Virus record (IMG/VR): IMGVR_UViG_3300038443_002533
Location: 160,001-224,000 of that record
Strand: one strand, 5' to 3'
DNA length: 64,000 nt
Origin: a virus
Taxonomy: Duplodnaviria; Caudoviricetes
In this document: in pieces, positions 1,875-58,541 of the stretch
Layout: every line of letters starts with the position of its first letter
How positions within the stretch are numbered: the stretch's first letter is position 1
The notes under the pieces: generated by a model
The model's input: the letters and a program-made list of their open reading frames with translations, nothing else
The model's database searches: none
Told to the model about the DNA's origin: nothing
Translations under genes and position numbers: made by a program

Positions 1875-2225
1875 TTACGGGTTGTACGGCACGGCCAAAC
1901 CGTTGCTGACGAGTTGATCGTTCAGGCTGGTCGAAGTATTCGGCAGATACACATCCGCCAGATAGCGACCATACTTCTCCTTCTTGTCCGCGACGGTTTG
2001 GATCACCACCGGGGCGTTAGCCGGCAGTTGTTGCTGAAGCCAAGCGCGTGAATCTTTCCCGGCTTGGGTGCTGACTTCGGGGGCGTTGATACCGTTGAAG
2101 CGGCAGGTCATGTTGATGTGGATATCGCATCCCAAGTCAACATTGAATTCTGCGGTATCGCCATCGATGACGCGAATCACGGTGGCGTTACGGATGTACA
2201 CATCTTTCTTTTTGGCGGCTGTCAT
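1875..2225 (-). CDS. thermonuclease / staphylococcal nuclease (SNase-like) protein
   Basis: VIRVIDGDT, RFNGINAPE, DKKEKYGRYLADV and LVSNGLA motifs; GGAG RBS upstream on minus strand. Confidence 0.9.
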   Translation of the reverse strand: MTAAKKKDVYIRNATVIRVIDGDTAEFNVDLGCDIHINMTCRFNGINAPEVSTQAGKDSRAWLQQQLPANAPVVIQTVADKKEKYGRYLADVYLPNTSTSLNDQLVSNGLAVPYNP

Positions 2226-2698: not shown

Positions 2699-2807
2699 CT
2701 TAATAAGTGGTAAAGTAGATCAACGCGGAGAACCGACGCGCTACAAGGGATACCTCGCTCTGGTTGGTTCACTGGAACGAAGGAGTTTGACCCTGCCACT
2801 TATTAAG
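2699..2807 (+). ncRNA. 109-nt RNA element closed by a 14-bp terminal stem
   Basis: CTTAATAAGTGGTA (2699-2712) pairs with TGCCACTTATTAAG (2794-2807); internal hairpins. Confidence 0.55.
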
Positions 2808-2826
2808 TGTTTTTAAGTTTCACGTA

Positions 2827-2964
2827 GGGCGTTTAGCTCAGTTGGTAGAGCACGGCTAAAGGTGGGCACCGACAAACCCACACCAGCTTAACAGGCTGGG
2901 GCCGAAAGGCAGTCACCATTCATTAAAGCCGAGGTCATGTGTTCGAATCACGTAACGTCCACCA
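2827..2964 (+). ncRNA. tRNA-like RNA E: Ala-type acceptor with a 69-nt structured insert in the anticodon loop
   Basis: GGGCGTT/AACGTCC-A-CCA (G3.U70); canonical D and T arms; CGGCT/AGCCG stem enclosing 2858-2926. Confidence 0.8.
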
Positions 2965-2973
2965 AGTTTCAAA

Positions 2974-3138
2974 GGGTGTGTAGCTCAGCTGGTAGAGCGT
3001 AGTCATGCAAGATTGTGGGGGTTCGAGTCCCCCCATTCTCTCGATTGGGAATGTGGCGGAATTGGTAGACGCGCCGTTCTAACGGACGGTTATCACATTA
3101 GGCTAAGGTCATGGGTTCAAATCCTGTCACATCCACCA
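2974..3138 (+). ncRNA. tRNA-like RNA F: Ala-type outer tRNA with a nested permuted Leu-like tRNA (96-nt insert)
   Basis: GGGTGTG/CACATCC-A-CCA (G3.U70); TAGTC/GGCTA; inner T arm, CATTCTC/GGGAATG capped stem and Leu-type D arm. Confidence 0.8.
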
Positions 3139-3315: not shown

Positions 3316-3780
3316 ATGGCTGGATTTGTGAAATTGATGTCGAATGAAAACCTGCCGGACGCAAGTCCGTTCAAAGGCTATCAGCTGATCAGCTTACCGG
3401 ACGCTGGCAAGGTCGAATTCAAACGTAATGAGCGAGGTCTCGATACGTGTGTGATCTACACCCCGGAGCATGATCCAGAAGAATACCTGATGTACGGCAA
3501 TGCGTATATCCTGAGCGACTCGGGTAAAACCATTGCTTCCCATGGCACCAACGTGCCCTGCGCATTGGAACCGGGTCAAGAGATCAATGACGCTAAGGTG
3601 GCGGTTAGCGCACTGCTTACGCTGGAACCTGACGATCTGAAAGCGGCCCTTTGCCATCTGGTTGCAACTAAGCCGGAAACCATCCGTGTCATGGGTGGCG
3701 TCATAGCCAATTTGGCGCGGGCCGGAAACGAAGCTGCTATTTACTCAATTCGTCCCGCGGTCGAACACATCAGCACGTAA
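3316..3780 (+). CDS. hypothetical phage protein inside the RNA cluster
   Basis: 154-aa ORF with AGGAG RBS. Confidence 0.8.
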   Translation: MAGFVKLMSNENLPDASPFKGYQLISLPDAGKVEFKRNERGLDTCVIYTPEHDPEEYLMYGNAYILSDSGKTIASHGTNVPCALEPGQEINDAKVAVSALLTLEPDDLKAALCHLVATKPETIRVMGGVIANLARAGNEAAIYSIRPAVEHIST

Positions 3781-3791
3781 CACCGATCAAT

Positions 3792-3950
3792 GCCCAAGTC
3801 AGTTATTCCCTCCAACCGATTTCGTCATGAAAGATGGCGCATCTGGCTAAAAGTGAATTCCAAGGCCTGACTAGGGCGCCCCTTTGGCTTTATTAGTTGA
3901 AAGAGGTGTTGTGCCACCACACGCCGTCAATCGAGTAGACTAATAAAGCC
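3792..3950 (+). ncRNA. two adjacent stem-closed RNA elements
   Basis: 3792-3802/3867-3877 (11 bp, one mismatch) and 3886-3897/3939-3950 (12 bp perfect). Confidence 0.45.
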
Positions 3951-3956
3951 TTCCCT

Positions 3957-4032
3957 TCCCCGATAGCTCAGCCGGTAGAGCGACGGACTGTTAATCCGCA
4001 GGTCCCTGGTTCGAATCCAGGTCGGGGAGCCA
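3957..4032 (+). tRNA. tRNA-Asn(GUU)
   Basis: Canonical cloverleaf, ACGGA-CTGTTAA-TCCGC, encoded CCA. Confidence 0.96.
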
Positions 4033-4034
4033 CG

Positions 4035-4893
4035 AACATAAAAGCTGGAATCTAAGCTAGTAGAGTTATCCTTTAACTTGTGCTGGGGTTGTGTTGTTGA
4101 CACTTTACAACTAAGGCTTGGGTTCCGCCTTTTGTGTTTAACTGTCTTTGGGTTTGACTTGGATCGACCGCGAGTCGCAATTACCATACGAGCGATTACG
4201 ATTATCGAAGAACATATTGGCCTGACTCACAAGTCACCTGGTCAAACCCACCCTTTTTCAGAGGACGCACGTGAGGTCGTGCAGGCTTGAGTATCAAGTC
4301 TAGAATGGGCGTGGCTCCTTACACCTACGGGGATACTTAAGGGAGTCGAGGGAAGTGAGATCTCATCAATCTCCACAATGTGGGTGCAACCCACCCCAAT
4401 ACTCGCACACAGGAACGCCGTGGAAATCGGTGAACAACCAGGAGATGAGCCTGGTCCTCTGAGCTATTCTAAATAAAGGTACTGATGAGCCGTGGAAGTC
4501 GGCCCCTGTGCATACAGGCAAGGTTGCAAACCCTTCGAAACATCTCTTGCGCTTCAAGATACAACGAGATGTATACCAATGGACTTAACAGTGGTAGCCG
4601 TTGCTCTTGTCACCTCCGGGGTCTTGATGGGAGTCTAGTAGCGTTTCTGACACGAGCGCTGAAACTGTACGACTGGTTCAACCCTGTCGGCGTCTGTCAA
4701 ACGTCGTGGAGAGAGGATCAGTAAGTTGTACAACGCGTAAGCTGTGCCGCACGCTCCTAGTGAGCGGGTTCAGTGAGAAGCTAGGTCGTGCAAGACCAAG
4801 TTGTGCAGCCATTGTGAGATTGCGTCGGTTTGGCCAGACTGGCGCAGTTGTATCGGTGTGAGGCGGGGGAGGGGTGCAAAACTCTCCCCCGTT
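4035..4893 (+). ncRNA. putative large structured non-coding RNA (~860 nt) downstream of tRNA-Asn
   Basis: No credible ORF; 9-bp long-range stem 4150-4158/4241-4249; many hairpins; ends in a GC-rich hairpin followed by a T-rich tract. Confidence 0.6.
4478..4577 (+). ncRNA. hammerhead ribozyme-like element (type I topology, expanded stem II region)
   Basis: GGTA-CTGATGA...GAAA-CATCTC/GAGATG-TA-TACC: full catalytic core with a GUA cleavage triplet. Confidence 0.65.
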
Positions 4894-4931
4894 TCTTATT
4901 CTTTTTATGCCGTCAAAATCTAGGAGTAACT

Positions 4932-5669
4932 ATGTGGAACTTTTTCAAACGACTGTTTGGCGGTGGTAAACGACAAGAACCCCAGATCGATAAGCCGAGC
5001 GGATCGGCGGGCCGCTGCACACCGTACATGACACCGCTCAGTTCCATCAAACCGAAGTCACCGGAGCCCGTTAAAGAAGATCTGAAGCGCCCCAACGGCC
5101 AATGGGAAGAAACGGAAAACCAACGGCCGCCCGAAAGCGTATGGCAACAAAGCTTGCGGCGCGAAATCAATAAGGTTGAAAAACGTCAACGCTACAATGA
5201 AATTTTGAGCCAAGCTGGGATGGATGTTCGCGCCAGGCGATTCGAAGCCGTGCAACAGTCCGTCGATCGGGTTCGCCAAGAAGCACTCAACTCCGCCACC
5301 CCCCAGATGAGTCGACCGCAATTACCGCCCCATGCGTTGACGGATTCGGCGCGCCTGGATTTGGTCCGAAGAGCAACGCTGAGCACCATGTCCCAGCGCC
5401 CAGGATTACAAGCTGGGCTAGACGCGGTTCAGCGTGACATCGAAGCGCGCCGTCGACAGAACGAAGAAGACGAACGTCGTCGCCGTGAAGCCGATGATGA
5501 AGACCGTCGCCGTCGTAACAACGATGACACATTGAATTTGTTGGTAGGCTTATCCTCGATAATTTCTGACACCGTATCCTCATCGTCTGATTCCAGCCCC
5601 AGCTCGGATCCGTTCAGCGGCGGCGGTGGTTCCTTTGACGGCGGTGGTGCTTCTGGAGATTGGTCATGA
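4932..5669 (+). CDS. hypothetical protein with Ser/Gly-rich C-terminal tail
   Basis: AGGAG RBS before ATG 4932; ends FSGGGGSFDGGGASGDWS. Confidence 0.85.
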   Translation: MWNFFKRLFGGGKRQEPQIDKPSGSAGRCTPYMTPLSSIKPKSPEPVKEDLKRPNGQWEETENQRPPESVWQQSLRREINKVEKRQRYNEILSQAGMDVRARRFEAVQQSVDRVRQEALNSATPQMSRPQLPPHALTDSARLDLVRRATLSTMSQRPGLQAGLDAVQRDIEARRRQNEEDERRRREADDEDRRRRNNDDTLNLLVGLSSIISDTVSSSSDSSPSSDPFSGGGGSFDGGGASGDWS

Positions 5670-6739: not shown

Positions 6740-6823
6740 TAGTATGTAGTACGTAGTAGGTAGTGCATGATTTATCGGTGGAGATGGTGGGATCGAAAAC
6801 TCCATTCACCATCGAGAAAAATC

Positions 6824-7393
6824 ATGAAGAAAATTGCATCTTTGTTTCAACGTAACTATGACGGCGATCGTCAAGTGCGTAATGAAGTCGTTCCGGGTTC
6901 GGAATGGGTAATCCACGGCGAAGGGTATGCGACCCGTAAATGGGATGGCATGGCTATTAAGCTGGAGAACGCTCAGTTCTTTAAGCGTTATGATGCGAAG
7001 GCTGGCAGAACACCGCCCCCTGAATTCATTCCTGCCCAACCGGCGCCTGATCCACAAACTGGCCACTGGCCTGGTTGGGTGCCGTTGCAAGGGAAAGAAC
7101 TCAATCGCGTAGTAGCGGCGTATCAAGACAGCGGCATCACGGAAGACGGCACATTCGAATTCTGTGGACCGACGATTGGTACCCGCCATGGCGCCAACCC
7201 TGAACGGCTCACCAAGCACATCCTGGTGCCCCACGGGCAAGACATCCTGGCCGACTGTCCGCGTGACTTCGATGGGCTCAAAGCCTATCTGGCGAATGCG
7301 GATATCGAAGGGGTGGTGTGGTGGCATCCGGATGGTCGTAAGGTCAAGATCAAAGCAGCTGATTTTGGCCTCGTCAGGCACGCAGTAATCTGA
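6824..7393 (+). CDS. ATP-dependent RNA ligase (RLIG1/C12orf29, DUF5565-like)
   Basis: Ligase motifs RKWDG (I), EFCG (III), EGVVW (IV), KIK (V); HILVPHG motif. Confidence 0.7.
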   Translation: MKKIASLFQRNYDGDRQVRNEVVPGSEWVIHGEGYATRKWDGMAIKLENAQFFKRYDAKAGRTPPPEFIPAQPAPDPQTGHWPGWVPLQGKELNRVVAAYQDSGITEDGTFEFCGPTIGTRHGANPERLTKHILVPHGQDILADCPRDFDGLKAYLANADIEGVVWWHPDGRKVKIKAADFGLVRHAVI

Positions 7394-7921: not shown

Positions 7922-8923
7922 ATGAGCTATCAATCCAAAAAAGCAACGTGCCCGCTCTGCAAAGGAAACAAGACGGTCGATACCCAGCGCGAGGTCTTCA
8001 TCATCGGCGACGATGACAAACTGTCCGAAGATGTATTAGCGATCGCCGATGCGATGGCTGGCGATAACGCATGCCCGCATTGCAATGGCGTGGGCGAAGT
8101 GTCGGTACCGCCGTATAGCGACGGGAAAGGCGCGCTTCTGTCCACAGATAAGATGGCGGAGTTGGCCAAGGCAGGTACGGTATTGCGTTGCATCGGCAGT
8201 GCAGTGTTTGTCCAAGCTGTCGCCAACCAAGCTGCGCGTATTGTTCTGCCCGAGGATATCGTGGACACGTATGTCGGTTACTGGGCTGATCCTACCCGTG
8301 CCATCACACTGCGTGAGTATATCTTCCAGATCGCCCAAACCGCAGAAGAACTGGCGATGAAGATGTATGGGAATCTGGGCAACCCTATCTATGCCGGTCC
8401 ACGCAAGCCGGCGCAGCAACCAAGCGAAAAAGTCGAAACACCTCCTGCTCCACCAAGACCGTACTTCTTGACGGATGACCAGTACGATCTCATCGTGCGG
8501 ACCATGAAAAAGGTGTTTGGTCTCGATGGCTTGGAATTCAAGAAGTCCATCATGGATATCGCGAAGATCGCCCACGCCAATGGCGTCGAACAAACAACGA
8601 AAGCGATCCAAGCGTCGATGGCGGCCCATTACCCCGAACTTGGGCAGCCGTCACTTGTGCTGAGTCTGATCGATAACGTGGGTTATTACGCGAAAGTGCA
8701 AGTCTTGCTTTATGCGCAGGCTGCGATTGATGCCTACATCGAAGACATGGGGTATCCGCCTCGCGAGACGAGTATGCCTAACGATAAGGGGCAGTTCCTG
8801 GCGTTGTTTGAAGCCTTGATCTCGCAAAATCCTACCGCGTACGAACGTCCTGGTCAAACTGTGTATCAAGTCACCAAAGACGAACTGGAGTTGCTGTATG
8901 AGGTTCTGACCAAAGAAATTTAA
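7922..8923 (+). CDS. hypothetical protein with N-terminal DnaJ-type CxxCxG zinc-binding motifs
   Basis: CPLCKG...CPHCNG; start reassigned to ATG 7922 after AGGATATC. Confidence 0.8.
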   Translation: MSYQSKKATCPLCKGNKTVDTQREVFIIGDDDKLSEDVLAIADAMAGDNACPHCNGVGEVSVPPYSDGKGALLSTDKMAELAKAGTVLRCIGSAVFVQAVANQAARIVLPEDIVDTYVGYWADPTRAITLREYIFQIAQTAEELAMKMYGNLGNPIYAGPRKPAQQPSEKVETPPAPPRPYFLTDDQYDLIVRTMKKVFGLDGLEFKKSIMDIAKIAHANGVEQTTKAIQASMAAHYPELGQPSLVLSLIDNVGYYAKVQVLLYAQAAIDAYIEDMGYPPRETSMPNDKGQFLALFEALISQNPTAYERPGQTVYQVTKDELELLYEVLTKEI

Positions 8924-58505: not shown

Positions 58506-58541
58506 CCAGCTGCTATGCCGTCAAAAACTTTCTCTAGATTA

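What the first reader, a model, noticed from the sequence alone, without database searches (positions are those of the whole stretch)
4035..4893. ~860-nt structured region abutting tRNA-Asn: GOLLD/ROOL-sized ncRNA candidate
The region is ORF-free. It has a perfect GGGTTTGAC/GTCAAACCC stem spanning ~100 nt, the near-duplicate hairpins CCG-TGGAAAT-CGG (4418) and CCG-TGGAAGT-CGG (4490), several TGCAA-loop hairpins, ACCAGG/CCTGGT, and TGCGTCGG/CTGGCGCA. Its size and tRNA adjacency match what is established for GOLLD RNAs, but an embedded hammerhead core would be unusual.
Basis: partly seen in the sequence, partly recalled or inferred. Interest (0 to 1): 0.72.

Follow-up and report, generated by a model that had tools for sequence, protein, structure and literature searches.

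The report
Hammerhead-processed structured RNA of giant phages
The gene-free stretch after tRNA-Asn in this giant phage is not one GOLLD-like RNA: it is a variable folded leader, then an unusual hammerhead ribozyme supported by covariation, then a conserved ~330-base folded RNA of unknown function that a cultured Burkholderia phage also carries.

Summary

The window lies in a complete 272-kb phage genome that encodes chimallin. The region is modular:
- tRNA-Asn (3957-4032)
- leader hairpin domains D1 (4033-4141) and D2 (4149-4250)
- an insert found only in this phage (4262-4466)
- a type-I hammerhead (4478-4577, predicted cut after A4573)
- a ~330-nt core RNA (4574 to about 4858), ending at an intrinsic terminator (4860-4905)

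**Hammerhead.** In 9 sequences from phages whose RNA-polymerase subunit is as little as 40% identical, every catalytic-core base is kept. Of 25 pairs, 17 change on both sides and stay paired. Stem II is replaced by three hairpins.

**Core RNA.** In 6 sequences, 29 of 46 pairs covary, and a 5-bp loop-loop contact shows one compensatory change.

**Leader and tRNA.** D1, D2 and the neighbouring tRNA are specific to a sub-lineage. Relatives carry a small ORF there, or nothing.

**Known families.** No Rfam family matches. GOLLD and ROOL are excluded as families.

**Distribution.** The ribozyme and downstream RNA occur unannotated in cultured Burkholderia phage FLC9.

**Expression.** A rhizosphere metatranscriptome contig covers only the core.

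**Open.** The function is unknown, and self-cleavage has not been tested.

The parts
3957..4032 (+). tRNA-Asn (GUU) with encoded CCA. The structured region starts at the next base.
   Evidence: ARAGORN; Rfam tRNA 69.5 bits. In relatives a different tRNA (Thr or Gly), a small ORF, or no tRNA sits in this place.
4033..4141 (+). D1: long imperfect hairpin domain, rich in G-U pairs, directly after the tRNA CCA. Leader module specific to a sub-lineage.
   Evidence: Present in the window, L003 and L009 only. Of 44 pairs, 94.7% of cells pair but only 3 pairs are compensatory; 68 of 500 shuffles do as well, so covariation is inconclusive. No blastn match in G001 or G006; absent by eye in L105.
4149..4250 (+). 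D2: ~100-nt domain closed by the GGGUUUGAC/GUCAAACCC stem.
   Evidence: Present in the window, L003, L009 and L105. The closing stem covaries (GAC/GUC, GCU/AGU, GCU/AGC, GGUA/UACC). Four of 28 pairs are compensatory, 17 of 500 shuffles.
4262..4466 (+). Insert of ~205 nt found only in this phage, between D2 and the hammerhead. It holds the CCG-UGGAAAU-CGG, ACCAGG/CCUGGU and GUGGG-UGCAA-CCCAC hairpins.
   Evidence: Absent from L003, L009, L102 and L105. No significant similarity elsewhere in the window.
4478..4577 (+). Type-I hammerhead ribozyme. Stem I is GGUA 4478-81 with UACC 4574-77. Core: CUGAUGA 4482-88, G10.1 4489. Hairpins: IIa 4490-4502, IIb 4504-4518, IIc 4520-4535. Then C11.1 4536, GAAA 4537-40, stem III 4541-4571, U16.1 4572, A17 4573. 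Predicted cleavage is between 4573 and 4574.
   Evidence: The core is invariant in 9 sequences except at N7 (U or C) and H17 (A or C). 98.9% of cells pair, 17 of 25 pairs are compensatory, 0 of 500 shuffles reach this, and slid controls give 3-4. The MFE of the isolated segment gives this fold in 5 of 5 homologs. The best Rfam hit is only RAGATH-1-hammerhead at 20.5 bits, E 1.6.
4574..4858 (+). Conserved core RNA. P1 4577-82/4598-4603 with loop L1. P2 4604-12/4626-34. P3 4640-46/4654-60 with loop UGACA 4648-52. J3/4 GAAACUGUACG 4661-71. P4 4672-77/4717-22 with inner hairpin loop UGUCA 4695-99. P5 4725-33/4801-09. P6 about 4810-4858.
   Evidence: In 6 sequences 91.2% of cells pair and 29 of 46 pairs are compensatory; 0 of 500 shuffles reach this. 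In the loop-loop contact UGACA/UGUCA, a C-G pair becomes U-A in G006. P5 and P6 covary. A metatranscriptome contig covers 4602-4821.
4860..4905 (+). Intrinsic terminator: a 14-bp GC-rich hairpin followed by a U-rich tail. It forms the 3' end of the RNA.
   Evidence: Terminator scan. Equivalent hairpin plus U run in G006 and G043.
4905..4917 (+). Conserved motif TTATGCCGTCAAA ahead of the next ORF (ATG at 4932). It may be a phage promoter and is not part of the RNA.
   Evidence: Conserved in L003, G006 and L105. A second copy with 1 mismatch lies at 58513, upstream of ORF 58591; the count in the window is not above chance. RNA-library contigs of a relative begin at 4877 and 4905.

Best explanation
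The stretch is the distal part of a + strand RNA-gene transcript. I infer that tRNA 3'-end maturation frees its 5' side.

A cis-acting type-I hammerhead then cuts after A4573. Its stem II is elaborated into three hairpins. Fold and covariation are shown; cleavage itself is inferred.

The cut would yield two RNAs:
- a ~540-nt upstream RNA (D1, D2, insert and ribozyme) ending in a 2',3'-cyclic phosphate
- a ~330-nt downstream RNA with a 5'-OH that ends at the intrinsic terminator

The downstream RNA is the conserved product. It is a compact fold of six helices (P1-P6), with a kissing contact between the loops of P3 and P4 and several invariant single-stranded motifs.

I take it to be a stable trans-acting phage ncRNA, most likely a protein-binding scaffold or decoy, within this phage's RNA-centred gene block. 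That role is inference only. D1, D2 and the insert are a lineage-specific structured leader, not part of the conserved machine.
For: **Homologs and modularity**
- L003/G002, L009, G006 (L102), L105, G001 (L017), G010/G045/G051/G052, FLC9, G027 and G043 carry related elements.
- In G006 an 81-aa ORF replaces D1 and D2, and its stop codon lies in the IIa loop.
- In G001 the ribozyme is absent, and the stem-I strands form a plain hairpin, GGUAA-AUAAG-UUACC.

**Hammerhead**
- Covariation: stem I 4 of 4 pairs, stem III 8 of 9 pairs. G10.1-C11.1 and A15.1-U16.1 never vary.
- IIa and IIc also covary in G027.
- The only core changes fall at N7 and H17, the two positions that tolerate change in this class (consensus features as described in PMC3088659, read).
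- The cut site coincides with the 5' edge of the conserved core.

**Core RNA**
- Covariation and the kissing-loop compensation.
- P5 (AAGUUGU...GCAGCC) is kept with covarying inner pairs in every member.

**Other support**
- Strand asymmetry of folding energy.
- Terminator at the 3' end.
- A rhizosphere RNA-seq contig of 220 nt, 5 differences, covers only 4602-4821.
- Hammerheads that cut long phage transcripts, and stems II of only 1-2 bp, are documented in PMC3088659.
Against: - No cleavage assay or end-mapping exists. Activity is inferred from sequence alone.
- The stem II topology is unresolved. It may be a four-way junction closed by G10.1-C11.1, or a 4-bp IIa hairpin with IIb and IIc inserted before G12.
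- Stem I is only 4 bp here, and I found no supported stem I-loop II tertiary contact.
- No Rfam hammerhead model reaches its threshold.
- The RNA-seq contig is a Logan contig at depth 8. It cannot show ends or strand, and DNA carry-over is not excluded.
- The function of the core rests on no direct evidence.
- G001 keeps the core without a ribozyme, so cleavage is not obligatory for the RNA.
Confidence: 0.72

Rival explanations
1. The ribozyme and folded RNA act mainly in cis as a transcript-processing or insulating element. The hammerhead trims the 3' end of the upstream tRNA or ORF message. The structured RNA with its terminator only stabilises or separates transcription units, or is a sensing leader for the downstream MW...RLFG gene.
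For: In G006, the FLC9 clade and G043 the ribozyme begins at or just after an ORF stop codon. The downstream ORF with N-terminus MW..RLFG is syntenic in the window, L003, G006 and L105. The core ends in a terminator, as riboswitch expression platforms do. PMC3088659 proposes that phage hammerheads process polycistronic transcripts.
Against: The downstream gene differs in G001, G051 and G043. A conserved promoter-like motif lies between the terminator and that gene, and RNA contigs begin there. A passive spacer is hard to reconcile with six covarying helices, a covarying kissing loop and invariant loops kept across phages with 40% identical polymerase. G001 keeps the core without the ribozyme.
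Confidence: 0.17
2. It is one large ornate RNA of GOLLD or ROOL type, about 860 nt, that works as a whole and perhaps forms multimers through palindromic UGCA loops. The hammerhead-like motif would be a structural junction, not an active ribozyme.
For: The size and tRNA adjacency in this window fit. The IIc loop UUGCAA is palindromic and conserved. The whole + strand folds better than shuffles.
Against: No GOLLD or ROOL match appears even at permissive E-values. Of the ~870 nt, about 440 (D1, D2 and the insert) are missing from G006 and G001, and D1 and the insert from L105. The tRNA is not conserved. Only one of the four UGCA loops is conserved. Variation confined to N7 and H17 fits a catalytic core better than a mere junction.
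Confidence: 0.05
3. It is non-functional intergenic DNA or a decaying gene remnant whose hairpins are fortuitous.
For: No promoter-like site was found. D1 covariation is inconclusive. The duplicate hairpin is at chance level.
Against: Compensatory changes far exceed the shuffled and slid controls. Conservation spans distant phages, including FLC9.
Confidence: 0.02

Closest known systems
Hammerhead ribozyme (Rfam RF00163/RF00008/RF02276, RAGATH-1-hammerhead RF03152), including the phage and prophage hammerheads of Perreault et al. 2011 (PMC3088659)
   Same: Complete catalytic core: CUGANGA, GAAA, A15.1-U16.1 and a non-G cleavage nucleotide. Three covarying helical arms. Placed in a phage polycistronic transcript, as PMC3088659 describes.
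   Different: Stem II is not a hairpin. It is a three-hairpin domain (IIa, IIb, IIc) with conserved loops UGNAAGU and UGCAA, and IIb ranges from 14 to about 60 nt. No Rfam hammerhead model reaches its threshold (best 20.5 of 56.3 bits). In the window's own clade it lies directly ahead of a conserved structured RNA; in the most distant members (G027, G043) only P5 of that RNA is recognisable. I found no paper in the searchable library linking hammerheads to jumbo or nucleus-forming phages.
GOLLD (RF01998) and ROOL (RF03087) large phage-associated RNAs
   Same: Phage-encoded, ORF-free, highly structured, next to tRNA genes in this window, function unknown.
   Different: No sequence or structure match. 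The conserved unit is ~330 nt, not 600-800. The tRNA neighbour is not conserved. The RNA is split by a ribozyme.
HDV-like theta ribozymes next to phage tRNAs (PMC10879173)
   Same: A small self-cleaving ribozyme in a phage tRNA cluster that would define RNA ends.
   Different: Different ribozyme class. It lies ~450 nt downstream of the tRNA, not abutting it. In relatives it follows ORFs rather than tRNAs. I did not test for an HDV fold in D1 beyond the negative Rfam scan.
RAGATH-type motifs (structured RNAs found beside hammerhead and twister ribozymes)
   Same: A ribozyme coupled to an adjacent conserved RNA of unknown role. This comparison is from memory, not tested.
   Different: No RAGATH family in Rfam matches apart from the sub-threshold RAGATH-1 hit to the ribozyme core itself.

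Membership tests
Hammerhead ribozyme | Conserved core C3 U4 G5 A6 N7 G8 A9 / G12 A13 A14 / A15.1-U16.1 / H17 not G | tested here: met
   All positions are present at 4482-4488, 4537-4540 and 4572-4573. In 9 sequences only N7 (U or C) and H17 (A or C) vary.
Hammerhead ribozyme | Stems I and III supported by covariation around the core | tested here: met
   Stem I has 4 of 4 pairs compensatory and stem III has 8 of 9. 98.9% of cells pair, 0 of 500 shuffles reach this.
Hammerhead ribozyme | Stem II helix closed by G10.1-C11.1 | tested here: inconclusive
   G10.1 and C11.1 are invariant. In place of a hairpin there are three hairpins (IIa, IIb, IIc), each with at least one compensatory change. RNAfold prefers G10.1 paired within IIa. 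A 1-bp stem II is documented for this class (PMC3088659).
Hammerhead ribozyme | Site-specific self-cleavage giving 2',3'-cyclic phosphate and 5'-OH | not testable with these tools
   Needs a cleavage assay or end-mapping. The only indirect hint is an RNA-library contig confined to the downstream product.
Hammerhead ribozyme | Score at or above the Rfam gathering threshold of a hammerhead model | tested here: not met
   The best hit is RAGATH-1-hammerhead at 20.5 bits against 56.3, E 1.6. No hammerhead model hits the homolog loci at E<=5. The shortfall is explained by the 23-41-nt insertions in stem II.
GOLLD RNA (RF01998) | Match to the family covariance model and conserved 3' domain | tested here: not met
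   No hit at E<=10 in window 3700-5100 or at E<=5 in four homolog loci.
GOLLD RNA (RF01998) | Conserved large size (~800 nt) as one unit, often with tRNA inside or adjacent | tested here: not met
   Only about 430 nt (ribozyme plus core) are conserved. A tRNA is adjacent in the window's subclade but absent from the fetched loci of FLC9, G051, G027 and G043.
ROOL RNA (RF03087) | Match to the family covariance model | tested here: not met
   No hit.
Riboswitch or T-box type leader of the downstream gene | Conserved linkage to one downstream gene, with the terminator as expression platform | tested here: not met
   The downstream gene differs in G001, G051 and G043. A promoter-like motif lies between the terminator and the gene. 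No T-box or riboswitch model hits.

The most novel reading that the evidence does not exclude
The ~330-nt core would be a new class of trans-acting structured RNA of chimallin-encoding jumbo phages. A previously unrecognised hammerhead subtype, with a three-hairpin stem II, would release it. It would have its own molecular function, for example as an RNP scaffold or as a decoy against RNA-targeting host defence. It could be studied in the cultured phage FLC9.
Probability: 0.4. Interest if true: 0.82.

Novelty: new variant of a known kind. Interest (0 to 1): 0.68.

Why it matters
Hammerheads have long been known in phages, but their roles there remain unclear. Here one sits at the 5' edge of a conserved structured RNA. 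The arrangement is kept in a lineage of chimallin-encoding giant phages that includes a culturable member, so the role becomes directly testable.

The three-hairpin stem II widens the known architecture of this ribozyme class and explains why standard models miss it.

The core RNA is a new, covariation-supported phage ncRNA family. It lies in a gene block devoted to tRNAs, tRNA-like RNAs and RNA-end chemistry.

The result also corrects the tempting label of 'GOLLD-like'.

Tried and rejected
- **Rfam at gathering and permissive thresholds:** only tRNAs and a sub-threshold RAGATH-1 hit.
- **blastn against 50,697 phage records:** only the tRNA matched.
- **Alternative long-range fold:** RNAalifold on three sequences proposed CUGAUGAGCCGUGG pairing with CCAAYGGACUUAACAG. 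I rejected it because it conflicts with hairpin P1, which covaries in G001, G006 and L105, and because L003's U-to-C change breaks it.
- **Duplication idea:** the window-only insert as a duplicate of the ribozyme rests on a single 14-nt match, E 9.7.
- **T-box-like pairing** of the L1 UGGU with the upstream tRNA's NCCA end: it does not follow the discriminator bases in L009 or G006 (read).
- **Tertiary contact** between the IIa loop (AAGU) and L1 (ACUU): 4 bp, no covariation, weakened in L105. Left open.
- **Pattern scans:**
  - One was mistyped and wasted.
  - The corrected IMG/VR scan gave two chance hits in coding DNA.
  - The first metagenome scan found nothing.
- **Downstream protein** as a synteny probe: no relatives found.
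- **D1/D2 by blastn** in G001, G006 and three fragments: nothing.
- **Read-laying:**
  - RNA runs X3 and X4 cover only the tRNA and the stretch after 4877.
  - They do not cover 4033-4877. This may only reflect divergence beyond 90% identity, so it says nothing about expression.
- **G027:** its stem I and exact cut site could not be resolved by eye.

Full report
**Setting**

The window is bases 160001-224000 of a complete 272,470-bp IMG/VR phage genome with terminal repeats. The genome encodes chimallin (PF25677, 56 bits) and a phiKZ-type RNA-polymerase subunit. The nearest cultured relative by that subunit is Burkholderia phage FLC9, at 41% amino-acid identity. The probable source sample is a rhizosphere metagenome.

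The finding lies in a + strand block of RNA genes. Upstream are tRNA-like elements and tRNA-Gln, then a 154-aa ORF, then tRNA-Asn at 3957-4032. A staphylococcal-nuclease homolog and an RLIG1-like RNA ligase lie nearby.

**Observation**

ORFs of up to 86 aa occur, but none is conserved. The ATG of the longest ATG-initiated + strand ORF (4485-4724, 79 aa) is the AUG inside CUGAUGA, and it reads ACG in a homolog.

The + strand folds to -314.8 kcal/mol (z -2.2). The - strand folds to -255.1 (z 0.03). An intrinsic terminator lies at 4860-4895 with a U-rich tail. The next ORF starts at 4932.

Rfam 15 gives only tRNAs at gathering thresholds. At E<=10 it adds only a 20.5-bit RAGATH-1-hammerhead hit. 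GOLLD, ROOL, HEARO, OLE, introns and riboswitches do not appear.

**Relatives and modularity**

I found homologs through the upstream protein, DNA patterns and two covariance models run over records reached through the polymerase subunit.

| Record | Size | Order of elements |
|---|---|---|
| Window | 272 kb | tRNA-Asn, D1, D2, 205-nt insert, hammerhead, core, terminator |
| L003 / G002 | 226-269 kb | tRNA-Thr, D1, D2, hammerhead, core |
| L009 | 8.4-kb contig | tRNA-Gly, D1, 67-aa two-helix membrane ORF, D2, hammerhead, core, extra module |
| L105 | 65.6-kb contig | tRNA-Thr, homologous small ORF, D2, hammerhead, core, extra module |
| G006 | 271 kb | tRNA-Thr, 81-aa ORF whose stop lies in the IIa loop, hammerhead, core, terminator |
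| G001 | 322 kb | 144-aa ORF, core only |
| G010, G045, G051, G052, FLC9 | 61-322 kb | ORF stop, hammerhead, diverged core, no tRNA in the fetched loci |
| G027, G043 | 285 and 243 kb | same hammerhead layout, then a downstream RNA that keeps P5 |

In G001 the two stem-I strands form a plain hairpin, GGUAA-AUAAG-UUACC.

The ~860 nt are therefore a mosaic. D1, D2, the insert and the tRNA neighbour are lineage-specific. The ribozyme and the RNA behind it form the conserved unit.

**The hammerhead**

The window reads as follows:

| Element | Coordinates |
|---|---|
| Stem I, 5' strand GGUA | 4478-81 |
| CUGAUGA | 4482-88 |
| G10.1 | 4489 |
| Hairpin IIa | 4490-4502 |
| Hairpin IIb | 4504-18 |
| Hairpin IIc | 4520-35 |
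| C11.1 | 4536 |
| GAAA | 4537-40 |
| Stem III | 4541-71 |
| U16.1, A17 | 4572-73 |
| Stem I, 3' strand UACC | 4574-77 |

On the model-guided alignment of nine sequences, 98.9% of pair cells form standard pairs. Seventeen of 25 pairs change on both sides. No shuffle of 500 reaches this, and slid controls give 3-4.
- Stem I is GGUA/UACC, CGUA/UACG or GCUCU/AGAGC in different members: 4 of 4 pairs compensatory.
- Stem III has 8 of 9 pairs compensatory.
- G10.1-C11.1 and A15.1-U16.1 never vary.
- The only core differences are U or C at N7 and A or C at the cleavage nucleotide. Both are permitted positions in this class.
- IIa covaries in G006 (UCG/CGA) and G027 (CGG/CCG). IIc covaries in G027 (CAGG/CCUG). 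IIb varies from a 14-nt hairpin to about 57 nt.

The MFE fold of each isolated segment gives the three-arm layout in five of five homologs.

The competing long-range fold first proposed by RNAalifold clashes with hairpin P1. P1 covaries in G001, G006 and L105.

Three things remain open:
- activity itself;
- the topology of stem II, either a four-way junction or a 4-bp IIa with IIb and IIc inserted before G12;
- the tertiary contact that fast hammerheads need.

PMC3088659 documents phage hammerheads, stems II of 1-2 bp and the idea of transcript processing. I found no paper linking hammerheads with jumbo or nucleus-forming phages.

**The core RNA**

The core runs from the predicted cut (U4574) to the terminator. 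The helices P1-P6 are placed as given under 'parts'.

In six sequences, 91.2% of cells pair and 29 of 46 pairs change on both sides. No shuffle of 500 reaches this, and slid controls give 3-9. P5 and P6 covary as well.

The signature AAGUUGU...GCAGCC is kept in every member. Its inner pairs covary: ACAA/UUGU, CCC/GGG, CCUU/AAGG, CCUAG/CUAGG and CCUUC/GGAAGG.

The 7-nt loops of P3 and P4 are invariant in five of the six sequences and complementary (UGACA/UGUCA). In G006 both change (UGAUA/UAUCA), which keeps all five pairs. This supports a kissing-loop contact, although it rests on a single event.

L1 (CUUAACAGUGGUAG) and J3/4 (GAAACUGUACG) are nearly invariant and unexplained.

**Expression hint**

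A 2019 rhizosphere metatranscriptome holds a 220-nt contig that matches 4602-4821 with five differences. It holds nothing else from 4033-4950. This fits an abundant downstream product. However, it is a low-depth assembled contig without strand or end information, and DNA carry-over is not excluded.

In two root RNA libraries, contigs of a relative begin at 4877 and 4905. That is at the conserved TTATGCCGTCAAA motif, which also precedes ORF 58591 with one mismatch.

**Interpretation**

*Shown:*
- a modular RNA locus;
- a hammerhead fold with class-typical conservation;
- a conserved, covarying ~330-nt RNA with a pseudoknot-type contact;
- presence in the cultured phage FLC9, unannotated, between gp133 and gp132.

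*Inferred:*
- self-cleavage after A4573, giving a 5'-OH product bounded by the terminator;
- release of the 5' side by tRNA maturation;
- a trans-acting role for the core.

The cis-processing or leader reading stays possible at about 0.17. The single large GOLLD/ROOL-type RNA reading is poorly supported at about 0.05.

**Earlier notes of this scan**

These had flagged the hammerhead core (e1-5409591). On another genome they had flagged a ~370-nt RNA whose 5' end a ribozyme would set (e1-5336320). My covariation results agree with both.

Noticed in passing
window 2974-3041 and 3047-3135: Rfam's tRNA model scores 39.6 and 31.7 bits on two adjacent elements that ARAGORN does not call. The first shows an 11-nt segment where the model expects a 15-nt anticodon arm. 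Earlier notes of this scan describe an array of tRNA-like RNAs here.
   Followed up: no
window 6767-7393 (+) and 1875-2225 (-): An RLIG1-family RNA ligase homolog (29.5 bits, above the Pfam cut-off) and a staphylococcal-nuclease homolog flank the RNA-gene block. Enzymes of RNA-end chemistry sit beside a ribozyme that would make 5'-OH and cyclic-phosphate ends.
   Followed up: partly
L009 7503-7706; L105 2059-2262: A homologous small ORF (67 aa in L009) with two hydrophobic helices lies between the tRNA and D2 in two relatives. It sits inside what is pure RNA leader in the window.
   Followed up: no
L102 1195-1440 (G006): An 81-aa ORF fills the place of D1 and D2. Its UGA stop lies in the IIa loop of the hammerhead, so the coding region and the ribozyme overlap.
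   Followed up: no
L105 about 2800-3090; L009 about 8230-8376: An extra conserved ~300-nt ORF-free module follows the core in two relatives. It includes a GGUUCGAAUCC T-arm-like motif and may be another tRNA-like RNA.
   Followed up: no
window 4905-4917 and 58513-58525: The motif (T/C)TATGCCGTCAAA lies upstream of two + strand ORFs and is conserved before the MW..RLFG gene in relatives. It may be a phage-polymerase promoter. The count in the window is not above chance (4 found, 2.3 expected).
   Followed up: partly
L017 3827-4495 (-), G001: A 222-aa ORF with an HNH/AP2-like homing-endonuclease look (judged by eye only) sits between tRNA-Ser and the gene preceding the core RNA.
   Followed up: no
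L114 1642-2148 (FLC9, LC667451.1 137441-137947, minus strand): A 507-nt unannotated gap between gp133 and gp132 of cultured Burkholderia phage FLC9 holds the hammerhead and the diverged core.
   Followed up: partly
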